In this document: piece after piece, positions 22,283 to 61,929 of the stretch
How positions within the stretch are numbered: the stretch's first letter is position 1
How the letters are laid out: each line of letters opens with the position of its first letter
Origin: a virus
Lineage: Duplodnaviria; Heunggongvirae; Uroviricota; Caudoviricetes
Direction: 5' to 3' (one strand)
IMG/VR virus record: IMGVR_UViG_3300014047_000001
Span: 1 to 64,000 of that record
Length of the DNA: 64,000 nucleotides
Program-made: the position numbers and the translations under genes
Notes under the pieces: model-generated
Told to the model about the DNA's origin: nothing
Database searches by the model: none
The model's input: only the letters and a program-made list of their open reading frames with translations

Positions 22283-22299
22283 TTTAAATTTATAAATAC

Positions 22300-23405: not shown

Positions 23406-23408
23406 GTA

Positions 23409-23624
23409 ATGAATTGGCCTATGTTAAATTGGAAAAGGGTACAGGATGAAGTACCAGATAATGATAGACTTGTTATCTGTTGGATTAAAGGAGGAAAAGT
23501 AGGATTTGGTATTTATACAGATAAACTTAGTAAAGAATATAATGGTGAAAAACGTTTTGTTGTTTATGATTATGTAAATGAAAACGTTATTGCATGGGCA
23601 GATTTTAACGCATATCCAGAATAA
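23409..23624 (+). CDS. small hypothetical protein
   Basis: 71-aa ORF. Confidence 0.35.
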   Translation: MNWPMLNWKRVQDEVPDNDRLVICWIKGGKVGFGIYTDKLSKEYNGEKRFVVYDYVNENVIAWADFNAYPE

Positions 23625-23626
23625 TT

Positions 23627-24448: not shown

Positions 24449-24516
24449 TTCAATATAGCGAATGACTTTTTTAGTTATTCGCTATATAATTATTATTAAA
24501 TTGTACTATATAAATT

Positions 24517-25209
24517 ATGGCTAAAAAGAAAGTAAAAGAAGAGCCGAAAGAAATGTCAATGTATGAAGAAGACTTAATATGGATGTCATACAGATACTGT
24601 ATTGGCAGACATACTATTGCAGCTTCTATGCATGCAGGAGAGATAGCAAAACATGAATATTATAGATTATCTCCAGAAAGACGTCAGTTTATGGCATTTG
24701 ATATTCGCCGAGAAATCGCATCTACTTTAAGTTTTGGACCTTTGAATTTCCGAATGGATCCAAATATAAAAGAAGAAAATTATAAGCCCCTTGAATTATT
24801 GTTAGAATTCTTCGATGATAATGATATTCATACCCGTGAAGATTTAGCAAAGATTGCAAGCATTCATACCCATATCACCTCTTATAATAATCCGCAAGAA
24901 ATTTATATTACAACAACCTCTAAAGATGTAAAAGAAGAATCACATATATCAACATTTGATATATTAGATTTAATTCCATGGGCAAACCTTGCTGCATGCT
25001 TTGATGTTAATAATCATAAGTGGTGTACTGTTAATGTAAATGGTGAAGAAAAGACTATTGAATACTTTGAAGCATGGGTAGAAGCAAATAGAAAAGAAGG
25101 TCAAGATTTTAATTTCACAAAAGTAAAAATAGGTGTAGATTCATATTTAAAGAATCCTAATTATTGCGGATACCTTATAGAAGATTATATTGTAAAAGAT
25201 GGAGTATAA
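24517..25209 (+). CDS. hypothetical protein
   Basis: 230-aa ORF. Confidence 0.5.
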   Translation: MAKKKVKEEPKEMSMYEEDLIWMSYRYCIGRHTIAASMHAGEIAKHEYYRLSPERRQFMAFDIRREIASTLSFGPLNFRMDPNIKEENYKPLELLLEFFDDNDIHTREDLAKIASIHTHITSYNNPQEIYITTTSKDVKEESHISTFDILDLIPWANLAACFDVNNHKWCTVNVNGEEKTIEYFEAWVEANRKEGQDFNFTKVKIGVDSYLKNPNYCGYLIEDYIVKDGV

Positions 25210-31100: not shown

Positions 31101-31712
31101 TTAAAAGACTTGGATATAGAAAAATGTTCAATAATTTTTAAAGAATATCTTGCACAAGTTATTAAAAAATTTGATGAAGATTTTGATAAACAAGATTTAT
31201 CTGCATTTGAAAAGTTTGTGGGTAATGTAGATGATAATAGTCATATAGAAAAAGAAACAATATTTGTAGGATATGACAGCAATGATAATGCAGCACATGT
31301 TTCATTATCACAATTCTTATCAATATATTCTGAAGTTGTTTCATATGCATTAAATGATAGTAATGTTAAAACGAATCTTACTAAACTTACTAATGATATT
31401 GATGCAGAAATTAAAAAAGCATTTAAACAAAAAACAGGTTTAGAATTTAATTTTAATTTCGTTAATATAAATGATGGTTTGCTTGTATAGATGTCTGAAA
31501 AAGATATGACGCCTGGTAATATTAAGGGTATAATAGATACATTAGAAGTTACAAGCAATGGACAAGTATATAAAGCTAATACAGATATGCTTGTTAAAAA
31601 CAGCTTATTAAATTTCTTGCCGGATATATTTAATCTTCCAATTATGACGAGATTTGTAAATATTATGTTTGGTAATGAAAATGGTAAAATTTATAAATAT
31701 CAGAAATCATGA
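28137..31712 (+). CDS. tape-measure-like giant protein (1191 aa)
   Basis: Frame 0 is open from ATG 28137 through track ORFs 28593..28802, 29499..29837, 30189..31490 and 31491..31712, crossing about 12 TAGs, to TGA 31710-31712. It has a Gly/Ala-zipper hydrophobic stretch and long coiled-coil-like regions. Its position follows a tail-chaperone-like gene. Confidence 0.5.
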
Positions 31713-40839: not shown

Positions 40840-43800
40840 ATGGGAAAACGATTAGACTTTGCAGGTGCAGCATTTGATCCAGTTGTAATGCGCTGGTATT
40901 ATGGAAATACAGATAAAGAACCAAATTCAATATATTCAGTTAAATCAGAAGTATTTAAGTAGGGTTATGAAGATCCTACTTATATGACTTTCCGTGTAGA
41001 ATTCGGAGAATGGGGAGCATCTGTTTTACATAGAAATGCTTTTACAATGCATGGAGGAATGGTATTGAATTCATAGCATCAAGATTATGATCAATTACCA
41101 AATGGCTTATTGGATTTACATTTTATTCCTGAAGAAACTTAGGAACAATATCCATTTTATACATTTAATAATCAAACATATTATAATGCTTATAATTATC
41201 TTAAACAACGTAATGAAGATGCAAGAGCAGAATATTTAAAGGCTTTTGTAACGGGATTATTTGAAATACAAAAAGATCACCCATATCTTTTTCAGAGTAT
41301 ATCAGGATTAGATGGTTTAAGCAATTTTTCACCAGAAAGTGGTCAACGTTTAAATAAAGATACATTTGTTACTATAGAATGTATTGAAGGGTTATCATTA
41401 AAGATAAAAACATTATTACAATTATATAGAAAGGCTGCATGGGATGATGCATGGCAAAGATGGGTTTTACCATTAAATATGCGTTAGTTCAAAATGATCA
41501 TTTATATTTTTGAACGTCGTATGTTTTAGGAAGTTAATAGGGTAAGTCCATTTACTTCTGAAAAACAATTACATACTGTAAATACAGATATTCCTGTTTA
41601 TGCATTTGAATGTAATCCTTGTGAATTTGTAATAGAGAATATATGGAATGGTAATTATGATGCAACATGGGGAGGTGATGCTGAAAAAACAAAGATAACT
41701 ATCCGTGTCAATAATGTAATGACATATTATAGAAATGGTTTACTTGATAGAAAATTGAATAATATATTAATTTATGATTTATTTGATGCTATAGATCGTC
41801 AAAGTACCACTACAGTATATAGTTCCAATACTAATATGTCTGTAAATCAAACAAAAGGTCAATTCTTAAAAAAACATATATTATTAGAAAATGAAGATGT
41901 TGCTATAAATGATTCTCGCATAATGTATGGTACAGGTGAAGAATTATTAGATGAGGATCCATATATAGCAGAACCATATTATAGAGAAATAATTAATACC
42001 ATGATGCCTCATTCTTTATTAGGTGAACGCATAAAAGCTAATTGGTGGCATGAAGCTACGGTAGAAGGCCGTGATTACTGGAGTAGCATGAGCGGATGGG
42101 ATGGTTTATTTGGCGGAGGCACATGGAGAAATATTGGTAAAGGCTTATGGAATGTTATAACTGCTGCTACTACGCAAATTCGTGTATCTCAGAATTACAG
42201 CACTCATAATTCTACAGTATTTTATAATATTCTTGATTATATAGAAACTGAAGGTTCCCCTGCAGAAGAAACTTATAGTATGGCTACTGAATATCTTTTA
42301 CCCGTACGTAAAGATTTGAAACATAATGCAGATGCAGCAACTCGTGGAGAATCTTCATGGGCTACAAGAGAAGTAGGTAAAGGCAAATTCAGAGATTAGT
42401 CAAGAGAATTGGATGCAATAGATTCTGAAGCATTAACAGAGAATGATTATTCATGGGCAACAGATGATAAAGATGCCGAAGGAAATCATGATTGGACAAA
42501 ATTCAGAGATAATCCTAATAAACGTCAAAAATCAAAATTTAACTGGAATAAAATAGATTCCAGTACAATGACCGGTGGAGATTTTTCATGGGCTACTACT
42601 GATTATAATGAAGCAGGAAATGTAAAAGGAAATGATTGGTAGAATTCTGCACAATATAAATCATCAGAAGTACCTCGTCAAAAGAATGGATTTGTATGGA
42701 ATAATATAGATTCTAATACATTAACTGGTGGAGATTTTTCATGGGCTACAGATGATAAGAATAATCATACAGATCATAAATGGGAAGATTTTGATAAAGA
42801 TCATATGCAAGACGGCCAACGTTAGAAACAAGCATTTGTTTGGAATAGTATAGATTCTAATAAATTATCGGAAAACGAAAGGTCAAAAGCAACGAAAGAT
42901 GGTAATAAAATACAAGAAGGACTTAATAGAGATTTATTAACAGAATATGATTATTCATGGGCTACTCAAGGAGAAGGATAGAAAGAACATGATTCTAATA
43001 TGGCATTCAGAAAACCCGATAATACTGAAAGAAATTCTGTTATAGATAAACCTATAGAAAGCGGGGGTATAGATTCTGCTGATTTAACAAATTATGATTA
43101 TTCATGGGCTACTCAAGACCTTATGAATGAATATGATCATCCTGTAAAAATAAAAGGTGGAGGGTTAGATACATCTATAAGAGAATAGAATAATAATATT
43201 CAAGTATCATTAGAAGATCCTCGTCTAGATCCTAGTTTAAATTTAATTTCAGTTGAAAGAAAAGATCGCAAGGGCAATAATGAAATATAGTATCCTATTT
43301 TAGATACATCTCGTGGATATGAAAAAACATTTAATTCAACAGATTTTTCCAATAGAGAAATGAATGAGCAGCTTCCCCCAACATTAGAAAGGGAATCTAA
43401 AAATTTTGTAAAACCTAATCTAAGAACTGTTGATGATACTGAACGTGGTATAAATGAAGAAATAATATTTGCTGGTTTAGATGAACGTACATTAAATACG
43501 GATATTGTATATGATCCATTAAAAGAAAGAAAATTAGATAAACCGGAATTCAGAGATATTGATAATGAACGTACTTTACCAGAATCACAATTTGGTGAAA
43601 TTCAGGGTACACGTAATATTGACAGAGATATTCAAATGAAATTAGAAAATCCTCGTTCAATACCAGAGCAAATAATGAATAATACTGAAGAAGAAAGGAA
43701 ATTTGACAGTAATTTACGTGAAACAGATTTTAAGGATCGTACAATAAATCAAAGCGTTGAACCATTAGAATATCAAGATAGAGAATAGAATAATAATGTT

Positions 43801-44877
43801 CATTTATAGATAGAAGATGCACGAGAACTTCCAAATTATCAAAATAACCAAAATGTATTAGAAGAGCGTAAAATTATTGATCAAGCATTAAGGCAACCAG
43901 ATAAAGAATTAATACGTCCGGAACATAGTTTAACTTCTGTAGATACGCATAAACGCGGTATAAATGATAATAGTTATTTCTCATTACAAAATACAGAAAG
44001 ATTCATAGATAATAATATTCAAATAGAAAATTATGAAGCACGTGTTATTAATGAGTAGCAATTAAGGAGTTTGAGCGATGAAGAAAGAAAGCAGGTAGAA
44101 GTTGTATTAAATCGACCAGATATATTAAATTATATTAGTAAAGCAACTAATGCAGCATTTAATGCAGAATTCCGTAAGGTTGATCAAGAATCATCAAGAA
44201 TAGACGCGACTGCTAAAGGTATGTTATAGAACTCTGAAGTATTCAAGAATTTACAATATGATGAAAATATAAAGGACAAGGATTTGACACAAGTTTTGGC
44301 TTTTGCAAAAGCTTATTCAGACGAATCTGACGCGATGAAAAATGCTTTCATTACTCGTATATAGGGGTTATAGAAAGAACTCAAAGAACAAACATTAAAC
44401 ACAGTCAGAGACATTCCTGAAATGGAGTATTAGATAATGAAAGATGAGAAATCGGAAAAGCAAGAACCTATTCTATTATCTGTAGAGCAAGTAGAGCAAA
44501 TAAAGAATAATGTAAAACTTGCTTCATTGGCAGACGCAGAAATAAGAGATTTATCTTATAAAGGTTTAATTTCTTTACATGATGCATTGGAGAATAATAT
44601 TGTAAAAACAATGATATTATAGAAACCTGATACCGTTGATGATAGAAGTATTGCAACAGATTTAGATAATCCACCTAAGCCAATTATAAATGGGAAAATA
44701 GATTAGGGGGAAGATAAAGATCCAAAGAAAATTGTAAATGGTAAGACAGAAGGTAATAATGCAAAGAATCTATATAATAATATTAGCAATGCAAAAATTG
44801 AGCAACCATCTAAGAAGCAAAGACCAATATTAGGACATAGATTAGATGATAAAAAATATAAAAAAGAGGGTTAGTAA
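40840..44877 (+). CDS. giant virion protein (1345 aa) with tandem (D/E)(Y/F)SWAT repeats
   Basis: Frame 1 is open from ATG 40840 through track ORFs 41719..42399, 42409..42642, 43000..43188, 43360..43788 and 44437..44622, crossing about 25 TAGs, to TAA 44875-44877. Confidence 0.55.
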
Positions 44878-44895
44878 AATTAACCCTCTTTTTAT
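44866..44895. terminator. rho-independent terminator (bidirectional)
   Basis: AGAGGGTTA-GTAAAAT-TAACCCTCT followed by TTTTTAT. It lies between convergent genes. Confidence 0.5.
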
Positions 44896-47800
44896 TATTG
44901 ACCTTCATTTTCAAAAACAGTATTTTGTAATTGTATCTCTGCTGTTCTATAATTATATGCATTATAATTATCTATTGTAAATTGTCCACCTGCATATTGT
45001 ATAGGGTTATTACCATAATAATCTTTTGCAGTTTTCCAGAAATCATCCTGGTGCTCATCATCTGTTCCAATATGTATATGCTTGCTTTGCGTACCCATAT
45101 CATCTGTGGAAACCTCTATATAAGCAGAAACACCATGATCATACATAAGCTTTAATACACCGCCATTACCAAATATATGATTCTTTAATACGTCATTAAA
45201 AGATATACCGTTATTAATTATATCAATAGCTTCACCATATAAATGTCTAGAATTATTTGTACTGATATACATTATATTTCCACGAGCATCCTTACATTTA
45301 TACTTATCTCCACTCTTTACAAATGCATTACCTTCAACTTTTTCTCCATTAGTATCTACTGCATATCTCCTTGCACCAACGAGTTTTATTTTATGTGCAG
45401 AAGACTCATCTATAGCTCTGTAAATATCTTTCATGAAATCTTTTAAACCAGTCAAAGGTACATCACCCACGTTATCTTCTTCAGCTACTTTATTATCCTA
45501 AGAAATTTCTTCTTCTGTTTTATTTGCTGTTACGTTATCACCTGTTGGTGTATTTGGATTAGGATTTGTACTTTCATTTGTAGGTATATTATTCTATTGT
45601 TCCGCTAAAGAATTCTTTACATTTTGATAACCAGGAATTGGCCATTCTCTGCGTGTTAATTCTAATTCTGTAGACCATGCTGATTCAGCGCGCTTTGGCG
45701 TACTTGTAAATATCCATTTAATAGATTTAATAATAAACCATCCAGATAATGTTGTATAAGTACAAGTGTTTAAGAAACGTGCATGCAAAGTATTTTCATC
45801 AACTTTTACTTCTTTTCCTGTAGATGGATCAAATGTTACCGGATTAGTGCTCAAAAGTGATGTTAATTTGTTATTGTCCAAGAATAATGTAGGAATTTTT
45901 TCACCTCTCATCATTGCAAAGTTTGCGCCATTCAATTTAACCTTTACAATCTTCTTAAGTAATTGCATGTTATTAATCTTATTATGCTCAAAAGCGGCAT
46001 CATAAAATTTATTAACATTACCGGTAGCTAATTCATTACTTCCTGTATCTGCAATAGTTTCTCCATCGGAATCTGCCATCATATCAGAATCTCTACCTCC
46101 ACGTTTCTTTGTATTCTATTTAACATAAGAACCATTATCTGCTTGTACATAAGTTCCATTAGTACCTGGACCTACTAATATATAGAAACCACCATTTGGA
46201 TATTTAGCAGCATTATATGGTATTGAATATGTCATTTCTACTGCATTATTATCTGGTTCAACGCCCTGATTATTAATAACAAAATTTGTTGTTACTGATA
46301 TACCAACCTGCTTTGTTATTTCTGCTGCTTGATTGACTTCTTTAAAATCTATAGCATATAATGCTGTACCAGCTTCATCATCATTCGGTATATTTGTAAT
46401 TAATTTCAACTACGGACGCGGAGCTGATTTTTGTTCTCCATCTGTTGCAGAACCATGCTGATTATCTACACCTCTATTATGCTTAAACACATCATTAAAT
46501 AAAGTTATATCAAATGTTTCATCAGGACCGTCTTCACCAAGCATTTTATTAACATTCAAGAAAGTCAATCCATAACGGGGATCTATCCAAGCATCAAAGA
46601 ATGATTCAAAGTTTTTCCATGAATGTGCAACTGTATCCTTAATATAATCCATTAAATTTGAACCTTGTGCTTTACCCTCTTCATCTGAAGATTCTGCCAT
46701 ACAATACCATAATTGGTTGTCATCTGTATTTTCTGGATCACAGAAGAAAAAGCCTAATCCTAATTTTGCTGCTGCATCTATCATTGCATCTCTACTAGTT
46801 CCTGCAAAAGAGAATGACATATTAGCATTATGTAAATTAGGTATAAACAATTCGCCCATTATGGTAAAATTATAAGGAACATTTAATTGATTCTATGAAA
46901 CTTCACTACTATCTACATAAGTTATAAGAAAATCACAACGTAAAGATTTTATCATACCATGACCTGGCGAACAGAATACTGCAATAATATCGCCTTCTTT
47001 TGGAACATTTGTTTTTAATAAGTCATTATTAGTTGTTGTAATTTCTAATGTAATTGTAGGAATAAATCCTACACATGCTATTTCCATTCTATCTATTTCT
47101 TTCTATGAGAAATAATAATCATTAATACGAATAATAGGATATGTAGCGCCAACTTCCAATGTAATATCTGGCTGATTTCCAGAAAGCTTCTAAGAACCTG
47201 CAGACATATCTTCAACATTTGCATATGTTGCTGTACTTGAATCCGCTGAATAATGCATACCAGTAGCAGGATTTATAGGTGTATTATTACCATCCATTGG
47301 TAAAGATAATTCGTCAAGCTATATAGTAGGTTCACTATACTTATAAATACGTGTACGTTTTTGTCCGTCTTCAGTACCACCAGCTGATAACTATGAATAT
47401 ATATTATCGCCGGCAGTTGCCAATACACTTGGTGCATTAGAAGAATATTGATTCTATACACCTGCAAGCTGATCATAATAATTATCCATATTATTTTCAT
47501 CTATTGGTGGAGTGGGTGCATTTCCATCATATCCTTCTGAATAAAATAAATTTGCTTCTCTTATTCGACGTCTTCTTAAGCCTTTTTCATGGCGAGAACC
47601 CGGTAATACATAAGAAGATTGCCATGTAGTTGTAACCTTTGATTTATTTTTATATCCATTACCCTATATAGTTTTTCCTAATGTAGTACGTGATATATTA
47701 CCATGATTATATGCAATACTAAACATAGCATCAAACATACTTTGCGTCATACCAGTATGCCATATTTTGTTTACATCCGCAGAAATAGTTTTTGAATCCT

Positions 47801-47975
47801 ACTTAAAGAATGCCATACATTCTGTATCTGAATAACGTTTACCATTAACGAGATCTCTAGAATGATGTCCAAATCCAACAGTTGGATATGATTCGCCATC
47901 TAATATATATGCAACATTAGAATAACCTTCTGCAGTTTTTAAAAAATTAAACCCGTTTTGACTTATCTATGCCAT
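44895..47975 (-). CDS. virion-associated dual-domain lysin: N-terminal GH24 (T4-lysozyme-like) plus C-terminal M15 peptidase (1026 aa)
   Basis: Track ORFs 44895..45470, 45594..46082, 46116..46409, 46410..46859 and 46893..47087 share one frame and are joined by TAG. Manual translation of 47088..47975 is open apart from TAGs. The N-terminus TAEGYSNVAYILDGESYPTVGFGHH matches the T4 lysozyme EG...TIGIGH motif. The C-terminus SRHLYGEAID...HIH is M15/VanY-like. Confidence 0.6.
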
Positions 47976-48011
47976 TTTGAATTATAATAGATTTATATAA
48001 TATATATACAA

Positions 48012-48050
48012 TAAAAAATGTGCTATCAAAATTGGTAGCACATATTTTCT
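48012..48050. terminator. terminator hairpin (AAAAATGTGCTAYCA core), copy 1
   Basis: ATGTGCTATC-AAAATT-GGTAGCACAT flanked by A- and T-runs. It lies 3' of the LRR gene. Confidence 0.45.
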
Positions 48051-48122
48051 TATATAATTTAGTATTTAAATTGTTATTAATAAGTAACAGCCCGGATAGA
48101 TAATTCATAATATTTTAATTTA

Positions 48123-51100
48123 TTATTGTTCTACTTTAGTCCAATTATAACTACCTAAATAATAACTATCTGTACTCATCCATGTATCATAACCAGTACT
48201 ACCAGCAGGTACTGTTAATGTGCCACCTCGCTTTACACTGTTAAATGTACGCTTTACTATTGTAGGTGCTGTCATCGCATTAGATACTATATTTGTTAAA
48301 CCGCTACAATCATTGAAAGCATAATTACCAATACTTGTAACACTATTTGGAATTGTTACACTTGTTAAACCGCTACAGTTACTGAAAGCCCAACCACCAA
48401 TGTTTGTAACACTATCCGGTATGACTATACTTGTTAAACTACTACAACTACCGAAAGCACTACTACCAATACTTGTAACATCGCTTGGTATAACCGTATT
48501 TTTGCAACCACTAATAAGAGTATTTGTTGCAGTCTCAATAATTGCATTACAGTTATTACGTGAGTCATATACTGTATTATTGCTATCAACGGTAATACTT
48601 GTAAGACTACTACATCCCATGAAAGCACTACTGCCAATACTTGTAATACCACTACCAATGATTACATTTGTTAAACCATCACACCATTCCAAAGCATAAT
48701 TACCAATACTTGTAACACTATTTGGTATATTTATGCTTGTAAGACCACTACATCCTTGGAAAGCACTTTCACCAATGCTTGTAACTCCACTACCAATAGT
48801 TACACTTGTTAAACCGCTACAGTTATTGAAAGCTTTATTATCAATGTTTGTAACACTATCCGGTATGACTATACTTGTTAAACTATTACAACCATAGAAA
48901 GCCTCATTACCAATTGATGTTACTGAATCTGGTATAATTACATTCGTAAGTCCTGTACAATAACTGAATGCATTGTTACCAATTGATGTGATACCTTCAG
49001 GTAATGTAAATAAAACAGTATGTTCACCTGTTGAATTAAATGTATAGTATTTTTCAACTTTTTTTTCCTCGCCATCCACTTTCATTGAACTAAAATTATT
49101 AGTACTATCTAATAATGTTGTTGGGTGGCTTGTATCAGCAACATTATATTTGCACAATACTTGGTTTTCTTCTAATATTGTCCAATTATACTTACCTAAA
49201 TAATAATCGTCGGTTCCCATCCAAACATCATATCCAGTAGAACCTGCTGGTACAGTTAATATACCATCTGACTTAATACTTTGGAATGTCCAATCTTGTA
49301 TAGTTGGAGCAGTAGTTGCATTACATGTTATATTCATAAGACCTGAACAATTATAGAATGCGGTATCACCTATAGATGTTACTGAATCGGGTATAGTTAT
49401 GCTTGTAAGTTCAGAACAATTTTGGAATGCAGCGCTACTTATTGATGTCACAGAGTTGCCTATAATTACACTTGTAAGTCCTCTACAACCAGAGAATGCA
49501 GCACTACTTATTGATGTCACAGAGTTGCCTATAATTACACTTGTAAGTTCAGAACACTCATAGAATGCAGCACTACTTATTGATGTTATAGAATCGGGTA
49601 TAATTATGCTTGTAAGTCCTGAATCAGAGAATGTATATTCACCTATTGATGTTACTGAATCGGGTATAGTTATGCTTGTAAGCCCTGAACAACCAGAGAA
49701 TGCATAATCACCTATTGATGTGACTGAATCAGGTATAGTTATGCTTGTAAGCCCTGAACAATAAGCAAATGCATGATTACCAATTGATGTCACTGAATTA
49801 CCTAATGTCACACTTGTAAGTGCAGAACAATTATTGAATGCATATTCACCTATTGATGTGACGCCATCTGCTAATGTAAATAAAACAGTATGTTCACCTG
49901 TTGTACTAAATGTATATGAATTTGCAATTTCAAGTTGTTTAACTCCATCTATTGACATAGAACTAAAATTATTAGTAGTACTATTTAATAATGTTGTTGG
50001 ATTTGCTATAGAAGTAACATTATATTTGCATAATACTTGGTTTTCTTCTAATATTGTCCAGTTATACTTACCTAAATAATAATCGTCGGTTCCCATCCAA
50101 ACATCATATCCTATAGAACCTGCTGGTACAGTTAATATACCGCCTGCCTTAATATGGTAGAATGTATTAGATGATATAGTTGGTGCGGTAGTTGCATTAC
50201 ATATTATACTTGTAAGTCCAGTACAATAAGCAAATGCGCTTCCATCTATAGATGTTACAGAATTACCTATTGTTACGCTTGCAAGTGCTGAACAACAAGC
50301 GAATGCACCTAAACCTATTGATGTTACAGAATTACCTATTGTCACACTTGTAAGTCCAGTACAATTAGCGAATATACTTGCACTAATTGATGTTACAGAA
50401 TTACCTATTGTCACACTTGTAAGTCCAGAACAACCCATGAATGCACCTCCACCTATTGATGTTACAAAATTAGGTATAATTACACTTGTAAGTCCCGAAC
50501 AACCAGAGAAAGCATTATCACCTATAGATGTTACAGAATTAGGTATAATTACGCTTGTAAGTCCTGAACAATTTTTGAATGCATTGTTACCTATAGATGT
50601 GACAGAATTACCTATTGTTACACTTGTAAGTCCAGAACAACCCATAAATGCACCTCCACCTATTGATGTGACTGAATTTGGTATAATTATACTTGTAAGT
50701 CCTGAACAACTATTGAATGCAGCTCCATCAATTGATGTTACAGAATCTGGTATAGTTACGCTTGTAAGAACAGAACAATTTTGGAAAGCACCAGAACCTA
50801 TTGATGTCACTGAATTTGATATGATTATGTTCGTAAGTCCAGAACAATTGACGAATGTGCCTGGTTCAATTGATGTGACAGAGTTACCTATAATTACACT
50901 TGTAAGTTTAGAACAATCTTGGAATGCACTTGTACCCATTGATGTTATACCATCTGCTAATGTAAATAAAACAGTATGCTCACCAGTTGTATCAAATGTA
51001 TATGAATTTGCAACTTCTTTTTCTTCTCCATCAATCTCCATTGACTTGAATATATTCTGCCCATAGCTTGTTCTTAATGTTGTTGGTATGCCTGTAGAAG

Positions 51101-51944
51101 TAACATTATATTTGCATAATACTTGATTTCCTTCTAATATTGTCATTGTCCAGTTATACTTACCTAAGTTTTCTGAGTAATAATCATCTTTTCCCACCCA
51201 AATATCATAACCCGTAGAACCTGCCGGTACTATTAATGTACCTCCAGACTTAATACCTTGGAATGTATTTGGATATATTGATGGAGCAGTTATCACATTA
51301 CATATTATATTCGCAAGTGCAGAGCAATTATTGAATGCACCATAACTAATATCTGAGATTGAATTACCTATTGTTACATTTATAAGTCCAGAACAATCAG
51401 CAAATGCACCTGCACTAATTGATGTTACTGAATCTGGTATAGTTATGCTTGTAAGTCCAGAACAATATTGGAATGCGGCAGAATTAATATATATTACAGA
51501 ATCTGGTATAGTTATACTTGTAAGAGCAGAACAACCAGAGAATGCACCTGGACCAATTGAGGTAACTGAGTTGCCTATAATTACGTTTGCAAGTGCAGAA
51601 CAATTTTCGAATGCTCCTGTATCTATTGATGTTACACCATCTGCTAATGTAAATAAAACGGTATGTTCACCAGTTGTATTAAATATATATGATTTTGTAA
51701 CTTCTTTTTCTTCATCATCCACTATCATTGAACTAAAATTATTAGAACTATTAAATAATGCTGTTGAAGTATTAATATCAGTAACATTATATTTGCACAA
51801 TATTTTAGATCCGGTAAAAGGATTAAAATAAGGTTTATTCTAATCTTCACATAAAGATACATTGGGTAAAATAAATTTTGATATATCAGATGCATAAGCT
51901 TGATATTCCTATACAGTATTAAATAATTTTATGTATCTCCCCAT
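48123..51944 (-). CDS. BspA-type leucine-rich-repeat (LRR_5) surface/receptor-binding-like protein (1274 aa)
   Basis: The 1225-aa track ORF has no internal TAG. An upstream in-frame ATG at 51942-51944 is reached across two TAGs. About 22-aa repeats (F..C..L.S(V/I)TIP.SVTSIG..AF) are organised in four modules of about 300 aa, each opening with NQVLCKYNVTS...TTGEHTVLFTL. The gene ends at TAA. Confidence 0.65.
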
Positions 51945-51974
51945 TTTACTAATTAATTATTTATTATATTTATT

Positions 51975-52026
51975 TAATATTATATATAAAATAAAAATGT
52001 GCTACCATTAAAGAATGGTGCACATC
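51975..52026. terminator. terminator hairpin (AAAAATGTGCTAYCA core), copy 2
   Basis: ATGTGCTACCATT-AAAG-AATGGTGCACAT, with a T-run on the minus strand. It lies 3' of the minus-strand lipoprotein gene and 5' of the LRR gene. Confidence 0.45.
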
Positions 52027-52066
52027 ATCGGCATTTATTAAAATAGTTTTTGTGTAATCTTGCTAA

Positions 52067-52252
52067 TTACTCAGCTACGACTGTATCAACTGCTGCTGTG
52101 TCAGCAACTACAGAATCTACTGCAGCTGAGTCAACGACAGTAGTATCTACTGCAGTACTATCTGCATCAGCAGCACCAGCAACGCTGTTACCGCAACCTA
52201 CGAATGCACTTACTGCAACAAATAATGCCATTGTGTAAAAAAGCTTCTTCAT
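52067..52252 (-). CDS. small repeat lipoprotein
   Basis: Signal peptide with a lipobox (AFVGC), followed by four copies of a 7-aa (A/T)AVD(S/T)(V/T)V repeat. Confidence 0.4.
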   Translation of the reverse strand: MKKLFYTMALFVAVSAFVGCGNSVAGAADADSTAVDTTVVDSAAVDSVVADTAAVDTVVAE

Positions 52253-52267
52253 AATTTTTTAATTTAA

Positions 52268-53452
52268 TTAATTTTTGTTATTATTTATTTTTATATCTGA
52301 CATAAGATTTAATAAATCCATTTCAAAGTCAGAATCTAATATTATATCATCTTTTATAATTTTGTCTATACTTTCAGAAGTATTTTCATTATTTTCTTTT
52401 GATTTTCCTATTCCATATATTATATCATAATATATTTCATACATCTTCTTTAGCATCCTTGCTAAAATTCTTTTATAATGTGTTCCTAACTTTGATAAAA
52501 GTTTCAAACCATCACCTTGCACATTTATATGTATATTCCGTGTTTTAAAAAGTTTTATAAATACCTCTCTATTTTTTAAAATAATGTCATCTAATAGATC
52601 TAGATCAATTTTATTTATATTATTCCAGAAAATATATAATGCTCTATAAATTCTAAATATACTTATATCATAATATGTAAATGATAAAATATTCTATACA
52701 TTTGCTGCCCATTGGTCAGATCTGGTAAGTTTATTATAATCTTTTTTTAATAGATTTGTTTTTTCAAATGCATCTATAATTTCATCTATATGGCTTTGTG
52801 CTAACATTTTTAATGAAACCGCATACTCCTATAAAAATGCTTGTACTTCTCCCGGATTAATATAATATATAGATTTAAATATAGTAGATGTAATATATTC
52901 TTCATCTGTATATATTTTCTAATTCACTTCTAAATAATCATGACTCCAATTTGCAATAAGTGGACATTTGTTAGCATATTGTATACCCAATTTATATAAA
53001 TCATTATCAATATCATATAAACCGGTATTTGTTGTTTTCTTTATATAATCTGTATAAGCATGACGGAATTCATGGGTGAGCTCTTTAAAAAATTGCTCAT
53101 ATGATTTTCCTGAATGATCAACAATAGCAATAGTAAAATCTAATTTATTATTATTTAATACTGCATCATGTTTATAACATGCAGAATATATTTGATTATT
53201 ATACTCTTCTATTTCTATATAGAAATTGCCTATCCAATTAGGAATAATAGAATTATCAAATAATTGGTTATTTTTATATTTCCAATAGCTTTTGAGTATA
53301 GACATAGTAATAATAGGCTATTCAGACGGATTTAAATCTATATAATTATTTAATCCGTCTTCTGCATCATATATATAGTCTGCAATAAGTTTTACTAATT
53401 TATCTGTTATTTTTAACTAATCTGTTAAAATGCCATGAGATTCATTTATCAT
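52268..53452 (-). CDS. HExxH zinc-metallopeptidase-like protein (394 aa)
   Basis: Track ORFs 52268..52522 and 52919..53305 share a frame, joined through several TAGs. It is extended to an ATG near 53452 across two more TAGs. HEFRH motif present. Confidence 0.5.
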
Positions 53453-53589
53453 TATAAATGAAATTTATTTTTATTATTTATTTACTGGATACAATAACAC
53501 AAATATTTTATCAATTATCAGCAAAGTTGTTTTTATTTTTGATAAATAAAAAGATAAATAATTTATAAAAATATATTTTTTAAAAGAAT

Positions 53590-54192
53590 ATGGCAGATAC
53601 AACTAGTAATGGTTTAATGAGATTACCACACTTTACAAGTTCTAAAGTCAGCATGGACAAAGACGAACCTATATACACTAACCTGTTCACTATCACGTTA
53701 GTCCCACCAGCATCTATTGCAAATGAAAATGATTAGGATACGTTGGTAGTTCTTGAAGGTATCAAGAGTATATCTGGTTTGAATACACAGCCAGGTAATG
53801 GTACAGTATCTCAGAAGTATAAGTTTGCTGAGCGTATGTTCGCAGGTCCAGCACCATCTCAGACACACTTGACATTGAATATAGCATTCCAGCTTAATGT
53901 CCGTCCTGGTGTTGCATCTGATGAAAACTATACTTATAAGTTCTTGCGTAAGTGGCATGACCTTGTATATGATCCATTGACAGGTCGTATGGGTATCAAG
54001 CAAGAATATGCTGCATCTAGTATGACAATTACAATGCAAGATCGTAGGGGTGTTCCATATTGGCAGTGGATTTGTTATAACGTTTGGCCTTCTGGTCAGC
54101 TTAATGGTCCAGATCTTTCATATGACGGTGGGCAGATTATGGAAGCACAGTGTCAGTTTGAGGCAGACTACTTCGATGAATCAATTCTTTAA
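53590..54192 (+). CDS. tail tube protein (T4 gp19 family)
   Basis: ATG at 53590 is in frame with track ORF 53743..54192, across one TAG. The NLFTITL motif corresponds to gp19 NLFQVEI. GC content is higher here. Confidence 0.6.
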
Positions 54193-54204
54193 TCTCATAG
54201 AAAT

Positions 54205-54245
54205 AAAAAAGGAAGAACTTAAATGTTCTTCCTTTTGTTTTTATA
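54205..54245 (+). terminator. rho-independent terminator
   Basis: AAGGAAGAAC-TTAAAT-GTTCTTCCTT followed by TTGTTTTT. Confidence 0.55.
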
Positions 54246-54258
54246 TTATTTTACTTAT

Positions 54259-54513
54259 TTAAAATAGAGTAATTGCTCCAAAGAATACAATAGATGAAAT
54301 TATAATATATTTTATAATTTCTTTTATTGATGCAGTTTCTCTATTTTCATCAAACAATTTCATTTCTTTCCTTGCAGGATTATCTTTGAAATGAAAATCC
54401 CAATCGGTGAAATTACTTTTTGTTGGATTCATTGCAAACACTTTTTCCCAAGGTGTATTTGCATTTACATTACTTGTTATCTGTACAGGATAACCATTAG
54501 AATAATCTATCAT
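54259..54513 (-). CDS. tail-anchored small membrane protein
   Basis: 84-aa ORF with a C-terminal transmembrane segment. It overlaps the stop of the HD gene. Confidence 0.4.
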   Translation of the reverse strand: MIDYSNGYPVQITSNVNANTPWEKVFAMNPTKSNFTDWDFHFKDNPARKEMKLFDENRETASIKEIIKYIIISSIVFFGAITLF

Positions 54514-55169
54514 ACAATCTCATTTGTTTTTAAATCATACTCAGTTTCCATCAAGAATGATGCAAAGCAATCTGCTTGTGCAATAACCATTACAAGAGGT
54601 ACATCATTAATAGCCTTCATAAAAGCAGGTTTTTCATAGAATGAAAGGAATGTGCCAGGATCTGTAAATCCCATATGCCATCTGATTGCAAGAATTTCTT
54701 CACCCGTTAAACGAATAAATTGCTGTGCAATCAATACAGACTTTTCTCCATGTCCCAATGGAAATGTATCATTAATATCATATGCGATATATTTCTTCCA
54801 TTGATTACCATATGGTGCATTTTCATCCTTCCATGTTTTTATAGCAGGTACATAATAATTAATCTTACACAAATCATGAAGCAATGCAGCAACTATAAGA
54901 GTTTCATCACTAATAGAATCAATATTCTTTTCTGGTAAAGCAATATCCTTCATATTGTCTCTAATCTTTACTGCAGCTTTATATACATTCAATGAATGTG
55001 CAAGTAATCCGCCCTTACAATTATTATGATACTTAGTAGAAGATGGTGCTTCATAAAAATCACATTTATCTAGCCATTCTATTAAGTTCTCAATACCTGG
55101 TCGTTGAACAGAAGACAAAAGCTGTTTATACACTGCCTTCATTTCTTCTAATTGTAAATTTGTAAACAT
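54510..55169 (-). CDS. HD-domain phosphohydrolase
   Basis: H...HD motif (LLHDLCK) plus downstream His and Asp residues typical of the HD superfamily. Confidence 0.65.
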   Translation of the reverse strand: MFTNLQLEEMKAVYKQLLSSVQRPGIENLIEWLDKCDFYEAPSSTKYHNNCKGGLLAHSLNVYKAAVKIRDNMKDIALPEKNIDSISDETLIVAALLHDLCKINYYVPAIKTWKDENAPYGNQWKKYIAYDINDTFPLGHGEKSVLIAQQFIRLTGEEILAIRWHMGFTDPGTFLSFYEKPAFMKAINDVPLVMVIAQADCFASFLMETEYDLKTNEIV

Positions 55170-55184
55170 ATCTAAATTAATAAT

Positions 55185-55535
55185 TTATTCTAAATTAACT
55201 AATAAACTTCCTACTTGATCACATTTATTAGGTTCTTCTAATATCTTTTCTTTTGTTAACCTGTATAATTCTGGTCGATTTTTTAAATCCTTCTTTGGTA
55301 TATTTGTTGCCATTAATAAGCAAAGTAAAACATGCAAGTCTAGCTCTTTTGCTTCTGACATAATAGACAGCAAAAATTTATCTATTGCTTTTATACTTTT
55401 CCATTCAAACATAAAAGACTTATATATATGATACATTACTTCATTAATAATGTTTAAGTCTGAAAGTTTTTCATCAGACAATACATAATATCTTAATGCT
55501 TCTGGTGTATATACTTTATTTGATTCCTTTATCAT
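55185..55535 (-). CDS. hypothetical protein
   Basis: 116-aa ORF ending at TAA. Confidence 0.45.
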   Translation of the reverse strand: MIKESNKVYTPEALRYYVLSDEKLSDLNIINEVMYHIYKSFMFEWKSIKAIDKFLLSIMSEAKELDLHVLLCLLMATNIPKKDLKNRPELYRLTKEKILEEPNKCDQVGSLLVNLE

Positions 55536-55929
55536 TATTCTTAAATATAGAAAATTTTATACCATCAATAGGATCAAAATATACAGTGAATTGCATTTTC
55601 TCTAAAAATTTCTTATATCTATATCCCCATTCATTTTCTCTGCGTATATCATCTTCTACCAATTTAACTCTAAATTCATATGTGCCGGGAGTATAAGAAA
55701 TTATATTAAGCTCATCCTTATCTTTTCCTACAAGCTTGATAATTATTTTATTTGTTGTTTTATCATATTTTACTGAGCCTTTTTGATATTCGATTCTGCA
55801 TAACAAAGTAAAAACAAGATCTTCAAATTGCTTAAAATCTTGTTTTGACAGCATTTCATCTATATCATTATCTTCCCAAGATATTAAAAGATTTACTGCC
55901 CTTGCAAAATCTGGTTCAATAAATTTCAT
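55516..55929 (-). CDS. hypothetical protein
   Basis: 137-aa ORF. Confidence 0.45.
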   Translation of the reverse strand: MKFIEPDFARAVNLLISWEDNDIDEMLSKQDFKQFEDLVFTLLCRIEYQKGSVKYDKTTNKIIIKLVGKDKDELNIISYTPGTYEFRVKLVEDDIRRENEWGYRYKKFLEKMQFTVYFDPIDGIKFSIFKNNDKGIK

Positions 55930-56240
55930 TTTATTTCGTTGTTTATGAACATTTTATTAAATGTATACTTATCATCCTTTAATTTGTTATAATAACTATC
56001 TGCTTCTGGATGCTCTGTTGTTCGTTGAATAGAATTCAATAAAGTATCAATAGCTTGGTTCTTTGTTATACGAGCAAGTTTCAAAAGATGATTAAAGAAT
56101 GCATATGATGATTCATCCTCAAACGGATTATTAGAATGCAGAGCTGTATGTGTATCAGCATAATCCTTTAATACCTATGCCATAAAAGACAAATAAAAAG
56201 GATTATTTGTATCCAATAATAGATTTTGCATATTTTCCAT
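55928..56240 (-). CDS. hypothetical protein with one TAG
   Basis: About 104-aa ORF (MENMQNLLLD...) hidden from the track by a TAG. Its TGA overlaps the ATG of 55516..55929. Coordinates are approximate. Confidence 0.3.
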
Positions 56241-59982: not shown

Positions 59983-61020
59983 TTATTTTAACATTGAATA
60001 TCTGAATACTTTATTTGGACACCATTTATTAAAGAATTCCCCTGGTACCCACTTACCATTCCTTAATTTAATTTTATCAGATTCTTTCTTGGTTAATGAT
60101 GCATTCATATCATGGAGTAATTCTCTACGACGTTTACACCATTCTTTATATTCTGGTGTATCTTTCTTGAATTCATGTGTTGCCCATTCTTCCCAAGCAT
60201 CTAATTCTGCAGAATATTTTTTATATTCAGGATCTTCAAATTTTGAATATGAACCAGGTTTGTTTAATACCTTTTTATACTTCTGTTGAAGTTCATCATA
60301 TTTTGCTGTATATGCATCATAATATGGTGTATCTATTTCCTCTATATATTTTTCTAACTGCATTAATTCAACATACATATTAAAAGCAGTTTCTTCATCA
60401 TATCTTGTTATAGGTTGACCATTAGAATTTCTTTCAATTTTGTCTTGTTTCTTTTGTTTCTTTTCATCAACATAATAAGTGACTTTACCTGTTTGTTTTA
60501 TTATAAAACCGTATGTATATATTTCTCCATTAAAATAAAAACTATTGGTATCAAAAGAAACAAACACTAATCCTTTATCCGGAGAAACTAATAAATCTCT
60601 GCACTTCTACTTTGCATCCTATTCATCTTCATCATATAAATCCAGCTATCGAAGTATTTCTACAAAATCTTCATCCTTATGATGTAAATATGCCCAGTTG
60701 AATCCATTACGTAAAATCTTAACATAATCCGAAATAGGTTTACTCCATTCAAATCTATTAGTTACACGCTTTTTAGAACCATACCAATATACAGGCATTT
60801 CATCTTTGTCTATTGCATCTTTACCACCACGCATGAATGGGATATTCATTGACTGCAGAATTGCACTAATTTTTACATTTTTCTATACAGCATCTCTCAT
60901 AGCAGATGTAAGGTGAGAATTTTTATTATCTGTACTTACACTGCTAAAATCAAATGCTTCATTTATTTCTTTTTTTACTATCTTTGCCACCTCGTTTATA
61001 ATTTTACTATATAAAGACAT
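59983..61020 (-). CDS. hypothetical protein (345 aa) sharing an N-terminal module with the DUF285 gene
   Basis: Track ORFs 59983..60567 and 60646..60849 share a frame, joined by TAGs. It is extended to an ATG near 61020. The N-terminus [25 protein letters not shown] closely matches that of the adjacent gene. Confidence 0.5.
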
Positions 61021-61041: not shown

Positions 61042-61929
61042 TATTTATTTTTTAATATTTTTTGGCTTATATTCATCTATAATATTACAATTATCAAACA
61101 TATATTCTATACTACACCTAGGATTTATATTCCAATTACTAATATCATGATTAAATTCTGTATTTTCAAACATAAAGCTCATTGTCATAACATTACTAAC
61201 ATCCCATTTACTGATATTCTAATTAAATGATGAGCGCTGAAACATCTAAGACATTGAAGTAACATTACTAACATTCCAATTACCAATATTTCTATTAAAA
61301 ACAGAATGTGCAAACATATAATGCATATTAGTAACATTTCCTACATCCCATTTGCTGATGTTATTATTAAATTTAGAATATGAAAACATATAGCTCATAT
61401 CTGTTATATTTTCAACATCCCAATTACTTATATCTCCATTAAATTCAGACTGCCAAAACATATATTGCATATTTATTACATTACTTACATCCCAATTACT
61501 TATATCACCGTTGAATATTGAATTTGCAAACATATAATCCATATTAGTTACCTTACTTGTATTCCACTAAGATATATCACCATTGAATTTGGTATTTTCA
61601 AATATATTTGACATATTAGTAATATCAGATGTATCCAGCCAATTAAGATCGCAATCAGGTCCAAAGAGTTTTATAGAACGAGTTACTATTGCTTTTAATT
61701 CCATTCTACTGATAGGTTTAACAATAGGCATAGAATTTTTCATAGATTTTAAAAATTCTTTTTCTTCCTATGTTAATTTTTTATATGGTGTTTTTATAAG
61801 TTCCCTAATTTTTGGAAATATATTTATAGGTTTCTTTCCTTTATTAATAGATCCAAAATCAAATGCTTCATTTATTTCTTTTTTAACAACTTTTGCAACT
61901 TCATTTATAATTTTTTTATATAATGACAT
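61042..61929 (-). CDS. DUF285 (PF03382)-type repeat protein
   Basis: Track ORF 61246..61542 is extended in both directions through TAGs: 5' to an ATG near 61929 and 3' to a TAA near 61042. It carries about seven repeats of F..S.FNGDIS.W(D/N)VSNVT.M..MF. The antisense track ORF 61583..61978 is hydrophobic low-complexity. Confidence 0.55.

What the first reader, a model, noticed from the sequence alone, without database searches (positions are those of the whole stretch)
48123..51944. 1274-aa BspA-type LRR protein built from four diverged modules of about 300 aa, encoded as a hairpin-bounded cassette
The repeat unit F..C..L.S(V/I)TIP.SVTSIG..AF is the LRR_5/BspA-type leucine-rich repeat of Bacteroidota/Treponema surface adhesins. 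Four modules each restart with NQVLCKYNVTS...TTGEHTVLFTL. This gives repeats about 900 bp long at the DNA level that could support recombinational shuffling. The gene has no internal TAG in its 3678-nt body, unlike its neighbours. It sits between two similar hairpins. It is a candidate receptor-binding or host-surface-mimicking protein and may be a recently acquired cassette.
Basis: partly seen in the sequence, partly recalled or inferred. Interest (0 to 1): 0.7.

Follow-up and report, generated by a model that had tools for sequence, protein, structure and literature searches.

The report
Modular LRR adhesin gene of a megaphage
This is a real 1273-residue leucine-rich-repeat protein gene next to the baseplate genes of a Lak-like, TAG-recoded megaphage; its number of repeat modules differs between close relatives, so it is most likely a fast-changing virion adhesin and not a recent import from bacteria.

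Summary
Window 48123-51944 (minus strand) encodes a 1273-aa protein if TAG is read as sense. It has a 46-aa leader and four modules of 227, 362, 292 and 346 aa. Each module is an N-cap, 5-11 BspA-type LRR_5 units, and a C-cap. Two similar hairpins, found nowhere else in the window, flank the gene.

The genome is a distant Lak megaphage relative that uses TAG as a sense codon in late genes. The gene lies beside the lysozyme-bearing baseplate hub, near the tail tube.

Five close relatives (flanks 90-95% identical) carry 1, 1, 3, 3 or 4 modules between the same hairpins, sometimes with extra small LRR genes. Exact repeats of 50 nt (one module apart) and 43-45 nt (one unit apart) provide recombination substrates. 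The modules change amino acids 4-8 times faster than neighbouring structural genes, while the leader is conserved.

The leader and caps appear phage-specific. The same leader precedes GH2, Big_2 and MucBP domains in other large phages.

Recent acquisition is not supported. Codon usage matches the genome, relatives have TAG inside LRR bodies, and the TAG-free body mostly reflects few glutamines.

Best reading: a virion-anchored, recombination-diversified adhesin. Virion association is inferred, not shown.

The parts
48123..51944 (-). Complete coding sequence of the modular LRR protein: 1273 aa with TAG read as Gln, TAA stop at 48123-48125
   Evidence: Pfam LRR_5 E=7.7e-271
51807..51944 (-). N-terminal leader, residues 1-46 (MGRYIKLFNTVQEYQAY...LPNVSLCED...YFNP). 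It is conserved across the family and is proposed as the virion-docking segment.
   Evidence: Leader motif present in at least 46 of 151 family representatives. A leader HMM hits 88 ORFs, 30 of them fused to non-LRR domains. dN/dS is 0.10 against L001. AF2 confidence is low for residues 1-45.
51909..51911 (-). In-frame TAG, codon 12. It is conserved in all five relatives and read as Gln.
51840..51842 (-). In-frame TAG, codon 35. It is TAG in the window and L002, and Glu (GAG) in L001, L005 and L084.
51126..51806 (-). Module 1, residues 47-273: N-cap, 5 LRR_5 units, C-cap
   Evidence: 95% identical to module 1 of P0002
50040..51125 (-). Module 2, residues 274-635: N-cap, 11 LRR_5 units, C-cap
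   Evidence: 89% identical to module 2 of P0001, which is 70 aa (about 3 units) shorter
49164..50039 (-). Module 3, residues 636-927: N-cap, about 8 LRR_5 units, C-cap. This module is absent from P0001.
   Evidence: 90% identical to module 2 of P0002
48126..49163 (-). Module 4, residues 928-1273: N-cap, about 9 LRR_5 units with a 33-aa insert, C-cap ending ...YNWTKVEQ
   Evidence: 91% and 87% identical to the last modules of P0001 and P0002
50062..50111 (-). First copy of a 50-nt exact direct repeat, in the C-cap of module 2
   Evidence: its partner lies 876 nt away, exactly one module
49186..49235 (-). Second copy of the 50-nt exact direct repeat, in the C-cap of module 3
51997..52025 (-). 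Upstream hairpin (ATGTGCACCATT..AATGGTAGCACAT plus U-run). It looks like the terminator of the lipoprotein gene and marks the left edge of the variable LRR region.
   Evidence: same element at the same place in L001, L005 and L084
48018..48043 (-). Downstream hairpin (ATGTGCTACCAA..GATAGCACAT plus U-run). It looks like the terminator of the LRR gene and marks the right edge of the variable region.
44895..47975 (-). Downstream neighbour: 1026-aa hub-like protein with an N-terminal phage lysozyme domain and 13 in-frame TAGs
   Evidence: Pfam Phage_lysozyme 2.2e-18; phrog_7; 40% identity to Lak-B phages
52067..52252 (-). Upstream neighbour: 61-aa lipoprotein-like ORF (signal peptide, Cys lipobox, AVD repeats)
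   Evidence: repeat family D8; 100% aa identity to L001
53590..54192 (+). Tail tube gene, which sets the tail-module context
   Evidence: phrog_45 tail tube 3.9e-11; 49% identity to the Lak-B5 homologue

Best explanation
The gene encodes a late-expressed, virion-borne adhesin or accessory receptor-binding protein of a Lak-related megaphage.

Proposed mechanism:
- A conserved 46-residue N-terminal leader docks the protein on the tail or baseplate. Inferred.
- Four LRR_5 solenoid modules, each closed by phage-specific N- and C-caps, form an extended binding surface. Its specificity lies in four hypervariable positions per 23-residue unit (GxxAFxxC). The variability is shown; ligand binding is inferred.
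- The protein has no signal peptide, so it can only leave the cell on the particle or at lysis.
- The TAG at codon 12 means the protein can be made only once the phage reads TAG as glutamine, which places it among the late genes. The TAG is shown; the timing is inferred from the published recoding model.
- The locus diversifies by homologous recombination and slippage between near-identical stretches of the modules and units. This adds or removes whole modules, single 23-residue units and whole small LRR genes between two conserved terminator hairpins. The polymorphism and the substrates are shown; the process is inferred.

The likely benefit is tracking variable host (probably Prevotella-like) surface structures or other surfaces.
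For: Genome and context:
- TAG-sense ORFs cover 56.6 kb against 38.0 kb in the standard code.
- TAG occurs in structural genes at about 1.15 per 100 codons and is absent from many presumed early genes.
- Structural proteins are 40-43% identical to Prevotella Lak phages.
- The gene sits next to the lysozyme hub and near the tail tube.

Architecture:
- LRR_5 E=7.7e-271; four modules.
- 32 regular units, with entropy of 2.5-3.1 bits only at positions 10, 11, 14 and 15.
- AF2 model of the module junction: pLDDT 92, pTM 0.81. AF2 model of leader plus one module (P0001 residues 1-294): pLDDT 82.
- Best solved folds are bacterial surface LRR_5 proteins such as TpLRR and PcpA.

Polymorphism in relatives:
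- Window = m1-m2-m3-m4; L001 = m1'-m2-m4; L002 = m1-m3-m4.
- L084 has a single intact 290-aa module. L005 has a single short, frameshifted module.
- Flanks are 90-95% identical.
- Extra small LRR genes occur in L001 and L002.
- The hairpins are conserved at the edges.
- Exact repeats: 50 nt at 876 nt distance, and 45 and 43 nt at 69 nt distance.

Evolutionary rates (window vs L001): dN/dS is 0.33-0.45 for the modules, 0.05-0.16 for hub, tube and the 394-aa gene, and 0.10 for the leader.

Leader as a shared module:
- A leader HMM finds 88 ORFs in the fetched phage loci. Of these, 30 carry other extracellular-type domains: Big_2, GH2 with CHB_HEX_C, MucBP, and a lectin-like domain.
- Homologues in L003 and L004 sit beside GH2, Phage_tail_C and sheath genes.

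Family size and distribution:
- 796 representative clusters.
- 117 of 152 top hits end with the C-cap. Module counts are 1 (93 proteins), 2 (32), 3 (16), 4 (7), 5 (2) and 7 (1), with one protein showing none.
- 76 loci in IMG/VR, mostly on contigs of 100-670 kb.
Against: - No direct evidence of virion incorporation, such as proteomics or a structure.
- The leader is modelled with low confidence (pLDDT 38-60) and matches no known tail-attachment domain.
- LRR solenoids are usually monomeric, whereas classical receptor-binding proteins are trimers.
- One relative (L005) carries an apparently frameshifted copy, and Lak-B5 has no LRR gene at this position. The protein is therefore dispensable for the basic infection machinery.
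- Raised dN/dS could reflect relaxed constraint and not diversifying selection.
- Module counts come from metagenome assemblies.
Confidence: 0.5

Rival explanations
1. It is a virion decoration that binds the environment and not the bacterial receptor. Targets could be animal mucus, plant fibre or other cells, keeping the particle where hosts are dense, as in the 'adherence to mucus' idea for Ig-like capsid domains. The anatomy and diversification are the same as in the best explanation, but the ligand is not the infection receptor.
For: The same leader precedes MucBP and Big_2 domains in other large phages. The gene is dispensable or degraded in relatives: frameshifted in L005, absent in Lak-B5. 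BspA-type LRRs in bacteria bind host matrix proteins (own knowledge of Tannerella BspA and Treponema LrrA).
Against: The gene sits beside baseplate hub and tail tube genes, not beside head genes. The leader also precedes GH2 enzymes, which are typical of host-envelope depolymerases. No ligand data exist either way.
Confidence: 0.2
2. It is a non-virion intracellular effector: an LRR scaffold made late in infection that binds host or phage proteins in the cytoplasm, for example to blunt a defence system. The module variation would then reflect an arms race with those targets.
For: There is no signal peptide (sequence). LRRs are general protein-binding scaffolds. Eukaryotic giant viruses also encode many LRR and FNIP proteins.
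Against: The leader is shared with GH2, Big_2 and MucBP proteins, whose domains act outside cells. The gene lies in the tail module. The closest folds are extracellular surface proteins.
Confidence: 0.15
3. It is a recently captured bacterial BspA-type surface-protein gene (a moron or host-surface mimic). It would have been inserted as a hairpin-bounded cassette from a standard-code donor, which would explain the TAG-free body.
For: There is no TAG in 1238 codons after codon 35. The flanking hairpins are similar to each other. LRR_5 units are common in gut bacteria.
Against: GC3 and codon usage match the phage's other TAG-bearing genes. The body has only 14 Gln codons, so the TAG depletion is weak, with P of about 0.007 and non-independent sites. 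Relatives have TAG inside LRR bodies. The caps and leader are found in phage contigs, not in bacterial genomes. There is no signal peptide, Big_2 domain or secretion tail. Paralogous modules are far more diverged (60-72%) than orthologous ones (87-95%), so the array is old in this lineage.
Confidence: 0.05
4. The differences in module number are assembly artefacts: repeats collapsed or expanded in short-read metagenome assemblies. The true gene would then be uniform.
For: All compared sequences are metagenome contigs. The gene is internally repetitive.
Against: The longest exact internal repeat is 50 nt, shorter than the final k-mer implied by the L002 contig name (k119). Missing modules are specific orthologues, m3 in L001 and m2 in L002, and the reading frames are clean. 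Five independent samples give different, internally consistent structures.
Confidence: 0.05

Closest known systems
BspA-type LRR_5 surface proteins of bacteria (Tannerella forsythia BspA, Treponema LrrA/TpLRR, pneumococcal PcpA, and Bacteroides/Faecalibacterium structural-genomics proteins 4fs7 and 4gt6)
   Different: No signal peptide, lipobox, Big_2 domain, choline-binding domain or secretion tail. The modules carry N-caps, C-caps and a leader that appear confined to phages. The protein is encoded in a phage tail module and contains in-frame TAG.
'Leucine-rich repeat protein' and 'BspA family leucine-rich repeat surface protein' annotations in uncultured gut phages, including crAss-like cr273_1 and cr128_1
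   Same: Phage-encoded LRR_5 proteins with similar predicted folds (BFVD hits at E 1e-9 to 1e-4). All are uncharacterised.
   Different: None of the 50,697 deposited phage records matches the cap junction or the leader. Only 38 records carry any LRR_5 match, all unannotated or 'hypothetical'. The multi-module, capped and leader-tagged architecture and its locus polymorphism are not described there.
Goslar/Chimalliviridae DUF7941 proteins: a conserved N-terminal module followed by carbohydrate-binding, glycoside-hydrolase or LRR domains, proposed as a baseplate 'fibre cloud' (bioRxiv 10.64898/2026.04.21.720040, read)
   Same: The same logic in another group of large phages: one conserved N-terminal module shared by paralogous proteins whose distal parts are binding or hydrolytic domains, including LRRs.
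   Different: No sequence relationship was tested or seen. The leader here is about 45 residues, not a DUF7941 domain. Virion association is shown by mass spectrometry for Goslar, but not here.
Lak megaphages of Prevotella (Devoto et al. 2019, PMC6784885)
   Same: TAG read as sense, low GC, and homologous structural proteins at 40-49% identity. One relative's leader protein lies on a 713-kb contig.
   Different: Lak-A, B and C have no match to the caps, and Lak-B5 has no LRR gene between tail tube and hub. The LRR array is specific to this probably ruminal sub-lineage; the rumen origin is inferred only from the sample labels of L001 and L004.
Lamprey/hagfish variable lymphocyte receptors
   Same: LRR scaffolds whose specificity sits in a few variable positions and whose length changes by adding or removing LRR cassettes. 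They appear as weak structural matches.
   Different: VLRs are assembled somatically by a dedicated gene-conversion system. Here the variation is between genomes, and no dedicated machinery was found. This is an analogy only.

Membership tests
Pfam LRR_5 (BspA-type leucine-rich repeat) | Match to PF13306 above the gathering score | tested here: met
   882.8 bits against a cut-off of 27.7, in 11 stretches; 32 regular 23-aa units
Bacterial BspA-family surface adhesins | Export signal (signal peptide or lipobox) at the N-terminus | tested here: not met
   The N-terminus MGRYIKLFNTVQEYQAYASD has no hydrophobic signal segment (sequence). This was read by eye; no predictor was run.
Bacterial BspA-family surface adhesins | Accessory surface-anchoring domains (Big_2, T9SS C-terminal domain, choline-binding repeats) | tested here: not met
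   Pfam finds only LRR families. The protein ends in the C-cap ...YNWTKVEQ.
Bacterial BspA-family surface adhesins | Binding to host matrix or cell-surface ligands | not testable with these tools
   Needs binding assays
Phage receptor-binding or tail-associated adhesin | Gene located in the tail/baseplate module | tested here: met
   Adjacent to the lysozyme hub-like gene and 1.6 kb from the tail tube. Homologues lie beside GH2, Phage_tail_C and sheath genes.
Phage receptor-binding or tail-associated adhesin | Conserved N-terminal attachment part with a variable distal part | tested here: met
   Leader dN/dS is 0.10 against 0.33-0.45 for the modules. The leader is shared with proteins carrying other distal domains. 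That the leader attaches to the virion is inferred.
Phage receptor-binding or tail-associated adhesin | Physical presence in the virion and binding to the host surface | not testable with these tools
   Needs proteomics, cryo-EM and adsorption assays
TAG-recoded (code 15-like) Lak-type phage genome | In-frame TAG in conserved coding regions, and longer ORFs when TAG is read as sense | tested here: met
   TAG at codon 12 lies inside the conserved leader in five genomes.
TAG-recoded (code 15-like) Lak-type phage genome | Phage-encoded suppressor tRNA(CUA) | tested here: inconclusive
   No tRNA in this 64-kb window. The genome is probably several hundred kb, so the tRNA may lie elsewhere.
Programmed diversification systems (DGR, invertible shufflon) | Template repeat with reverse transcriptase, or inverted repeats with an invertase, at the locus | tested here: not met
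   Only weak inverted repeats (20-28 nt, 71-82% complementary) in 47900-52300. Neighbouring genes show no such enzymes. The whole window was not screened for a reverse transcriptase.

The most novel reading that the evidence does not exclude
The 45-residue leader (M-x-KY-I/L-K-x-F-x-T-x-x-EY ... LPNVS-x-C ... VHYNP) may be a common docking tag. Lak-like and other large gut and rumen phages would use it to hang an interchangeable set of adhesins and enzymes on one site of the tail: capped LRR modules, Big_2/lectin proteins, GH2 hydrolases and MucBP proteins. The LRR locus would then be a recombination-driven cassette array that re-tunes host range or niche binding between closely related megaphages. 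This would be the first handle on the host-recognition apparatus of these uncultivated phages.
Probability: 0.3. Interest if true: 0.65.

Novelty: new variant of a known kind. Interest (0 to 1): 0.45.

Why it matters
Lak-type megaphages have never been cultured, and how they recognise hosts is unknown. This locus offers a concrete candidate for the variable part of their adsorption apparatus. It has a conserved leader that could be used to pull down its docking partner. It has four hypervariable positions per repeat that predict the binding face. It also shows natural variants with 1-4 modules that could be compared for host or niche differences. In addition, a TAG-free stretch in a recoded phage should not by itself be read as foreign DNA, because amino-acid composition can produce it.

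Tried and rejected
- Megablast of 44000-56000 against 50,697 phage records: no match.
- IMG/VR scan with the hub protein: no match.
- tblastn of the cap junction and of a consensus-like leader against deposited phages: nothing significant.
- Source names for ten family representatives: none carry names.
- Literature searches for BspA/LRR_5 in phage tails or recoded phages: no description of this family. The SPLASH preprint's LRR_5 signal concerns an unrelated MITE.
- Sequence and fold searches of the leader and caps: only the LRR part matches anything solved.
The near-identical P0001 N-terminus was modelled instead.
- The TAG-free body as evidence of foreign origin was rejected after counting Gln codons, checking relatives and comparing codon usage.
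- A simple m1/m4 hybrid origin for the single-module L084 protein was rejected. Its units are locally homogenised duplicates.
- An exact-pattern scan of IMG/VR for the 3' flank found nothing.
Full report
**1. What is there**

In the standard code the region holds a 1225-aa ORF, 48123..51800 on the minus strand, starting at TTG. Upstream, an ATG at 51944 is in frame and separated from that ORF only by two TAG codons, 12 and 35.

The whole window reads far better with TAG as a sense codon. Long ORFs then cover 56.6 kb instead of 38.0 kb. Seventeen genes, among them the identified tail and hub genes, carry TAG at 1.15 per 100 codons, while many other, presumably early, genes have none. These TAG-bearing genes are called 'late genes' below; the label is an inference from TAG content, not a measurement.

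The 46 residues before the first module are conserved in relatives, including across the TAG at codon 12, and are under purifying selection (dN/dS 0.10). The gene is therefore 48123..51944, 1273 aa.

Pfam LRR_5 matches at E=7.7e-271.

**2. Anatomy**

The protein is a leader (residues 1-46) followed by four modules: 47-273, 274-635, 636-927 and 928-1273. Each module consists of:
- an N-cap of about 55 aa (..LCKYNVT....TGEHTVLFTL);
- 5 to 11 LRR_5 units of 23 aa;
- a C-cap of about 55 aa (CNATTAPTI..GTLTVPAGSTGYDVWMG..YYLGKYNWT).

Paralogous modules are 60-72% identical. Thirty-two units are fully regular. Their framework is nearly invariant, and variability is concentrated at positions 10, 11, 14 and 15 (GxxAFxxC), at 2.5-3.1 bits.

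AlphaFold models give a confident solenoid with caps. P0001 residues 1-294 reach pLDDT 82, with the leader poorly defined. The module 2/3 junction reaches pLDDT 92.3 and pTM 0.81 in the best of five models; the other four were lower. Only the LRR part resembles solved structures: 4gt6, 4fs7, TpLRR 6mlx and PcpA.

There is no signal peptide and no other Pfam domain.

**3. Genome context**

Neighbouring genes:
- downstream, a 1026-aa protein with an N-terminal phage lysozyme domain, hub-like;
- upstream, a 61-aa lipoprotein-like ORF and a 394-aa gene with no family match;
- a tail tube gene 1.6 kb away.

An 886-aa structural protein is 43% identical to Prevotella phages Lak-A, B and C. The hub is 40% identical and the tail tube 49%. 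The window is therefore a distant Lak-type megaphage. A close relative's leader protein also lies on a 713-kb contig. No tRNA is present in the window.

Lak-B5 has other genes, and no LRR gene, between tube and hub.

**4. The hairpins**

ATGTGC..GCACAT hairpins occur exactly twice in 64 kb, at 51997-52025 and 48018-48043, against 0.09 expected. Both are stable and are followed by U-runs on the coding strand. They look like the terminator of the lipoprotein gene and the terminator of the LRR gene.

Several other late genes also have a hairpin, a T-run and a TATAAATATA-like stretch upstream, but with unrelated stems. Being hairpin-bounded is therefore normal here. What is special is that these two stems are alike and that they recur at the same two edges in L001, L005 and L084.

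**5. Relatives and polymorphism**

Four contigs share flanks at 90-95% nucleotide identity or the same flanking gene order (L005). L002 is a 4.8-kb contig that overlaps only the LRR array, where it is 89-94% identical to the window. Between the hairpins they carry:

| Sequence | Content of the variable region |
|---|---|
| Window | one gene, m1-m2-m3-m4 |
| L001 | a glycosyltransferase gene, a 198-aa mini LRR gene, and a 929-aa gene = m1'-m2-m4 |
| L002 | a 199-aa mini gene, a three-module gene = m1-m3-m4, a 296-aa single-module gene, and at least one more |
| L005 | one short module split by a frameshift |
| L084 | one intact 290-aa single-module gene with locally duplicated units |

Orthologous modules are 87-95% identical, far more than paralogous ones. 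The modules are therefore old, and their presence or absence is due to gain and loss.

The gene contains a 50-nt exact repeat at a distance of 876 nt, exactly one module. It also contains 45- and 43-nt exact repeats at 69 nt, one unit. Orthologous modules also differ by whole units: 362 against 292 aa, and 292 against 267 aa.

These exact repeats are shorter than the k=119 implied by the L002 contig name. This makes assembly collapse unlikely, though it has not been tested.

**6. Evolutionary rates**

Window against L001:

| Region | dN/dS |
|---|---|
| hub | 0.05 |
| tail tube | 0.06 |
| 394-aa gene | 0.16 |
| leader | 0.10 |
| module 2 | 0.33 |
| module 4 | 0.36 |
| module 1 | 0.45 |

dS values are similar across regions. 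The modules change amino acids 4-8 times faster than their neighbours.

**7. The family**

A full HMMER scan with one C-cap/N-cap junction finds 796 representative clusters. Among the top 152 proteins:
- 117 end exactly with the C-cap;
- module counts are 1 (93 proteins), 2 (32), 3 (16), 4 (7), 5 (2) and 7 (1), with one protein showing none.

At least 46 of 151 start with the leader motif.

The C-cap pattern finds 76 loci in IMG/VR, mostly on contigs of 100-670 kb and often several per contig. It finds essentially nothing in 185,579 bacterial and archaeal species genomes, though that scan used only one pattern. It finds nothing in deposited phage genomes.

A leader HMM hits 88 ORFs in the fetched loci. 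Thirty of these have other distal domains: Big_2 plus a lectin-like domain, GH2 with CHB_HEX_C, MucBP, and other LRRs. This is the classic layout of phage host-recognition proteins, a shared attachment part with swappable distal parts. It parallels the DUF7941 proteins of phage Goslar.

**8. The TAG question**

The body has no TAG, but it also has only 14 Gln codons, against about 3.9% Gln-type codons in other late genes. With TAG making up 30% of Gln-type codons in late genes, P(0 of 14) = 0.007. Several of those Gln sit at the same position of paralogous modules, so the true significance is weaker.

Relatives carry TAG inside LRR bodies. GC3 is 0.150, inside the late-gene range, and synonymous codon usage correlates at r=0.94 with late genes. 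Recent capture from a standard-code donor is therefore not supported.

The conserved TAG at codon 12 should still restrict translation to the recoded, late phase. This follows the published model for recoded phages (Borges et al. 2022, from my own knowledge; see also PMC10879173 and PMC11210395, listed).

**9. Verdict**

The locus is a lineage-specific, recombination-prone array of capped LRR_5 modules in the tail region of a Lak-like megaphage. It most likely encodes a virion-anchored adhesin (confidence about 0.5 for that function). Three rivals were weighed:
- A virion decoration that binds mucus or fibre cannot be excluded.
- An intracellular effector also cannot be excluded.
- Recent bacterial origin is largely excluded.

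Phage LRR_5 proteins are already annotated in gut viromes but are uncharacterised. The capped, multi-module, leader-tagged form and its documented module polymorphism are a new variant of that kind.

Noticed in passing
whole window; e.g. 40840-44877 (21 TAG), 28137-31712 (11 TAG), against 10268-14121 and 19077-25209 (0 TAG): TAG is used as a sense codon in structural and presumed late genes but is absent from long runs of presumed early genes. No suppressor tRNA, and no tRNA of any kind, lies in these 64 kb.
   Followed up: partly
13282-14121 (+): A lipoprotein-like SPFH/Band 7 protein (Pfam 3.5e-14) uses only CAG for glutamine (14 CAG, 0 CAA, 0 TAG), whereas most of the window's genes prefer CAA. 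The tail tube gene 53590-54192 is also CAG-rich (9 CAG, 2 CAA). These are better candidates for foreign or differently constrained genes than the LRR gene.
   Followed up: partly
52067-52252 (-): A 61-aa ORF has a signal peptide and a Cys lipobox (MKKLFYTMALFVAVSAFVGCG), followed by tandem 30-nt repeats encoding (A/T)AVD(S/T). It is 100% conserved at the protein level in L001. It could be a phage lipoprotein such as a spanin or an exclusion factor.
   Followed up: no
59983-61020 (-) and 61045-61929 (-): Two adjacent genes begin with nearly the same 25 residues (MSLY[S/K]KIINEVAK[I/V][11 protein letters not shown]) and each carry 4 TAGs. They look like a tandem paralogue pair of unknown function.
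   Followed up: no
upstream of genes at 1191, 6309, 17351, 27272, 44895 (start at 47975) and 48123 (start at 51944): A recurrent layout precedes late genes: a GC-containing hairpin, a T-run, then a TATAAATATA/TATATATA-like stretch about 35-45 nt before the ATG. This may be a terminator plus late-promoter unit. The stems differ, except for the two that flank the LRR gene.
   Followed up: partly
L001 8409-9182: The close relative carries an extra TAG-free 257-aa glycosyltransferase family 2 gene (Glyco_tranf_2_4, 2.5e-11) inside the hairpin-bounded variable region, next to a 198-aa mini LRR gene.
   Followed up: partly
L005 10001-10601: The single-module LRR gene of this relative is split by an apparent +1 frameshift (..GITF* then GCSALTSIIIP.. 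in the next frame). It could be a pseudogene, a sequencing error or programmed frameshifting.
   Followed up: no
P0121: The leader-bearing protein of a close relative is recorded on a 713,559-bp contig. If that contig is a single phage genome, this lineage would be among the largest phage genomes known.
   Followed up: no
44861-44893: A perfect 13-bp-stem bidirectional terminator (AAAAAGAGGGTTA..TAACCCTCTTTTT) lies between the convergent 1345-aa gene and the hub gene.
   Followed up: no
L084 (reverse complement) 3874-4746: The single-module orthologue contains two pairs of identical 23-aa LRR units (SAVFYNCSGLTSVTIGNSVTSIG twice, NGSFSGCSGLTSVTIGNSVTSIG twice). This indicates very recent unit duplication.
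   Followed up: partly
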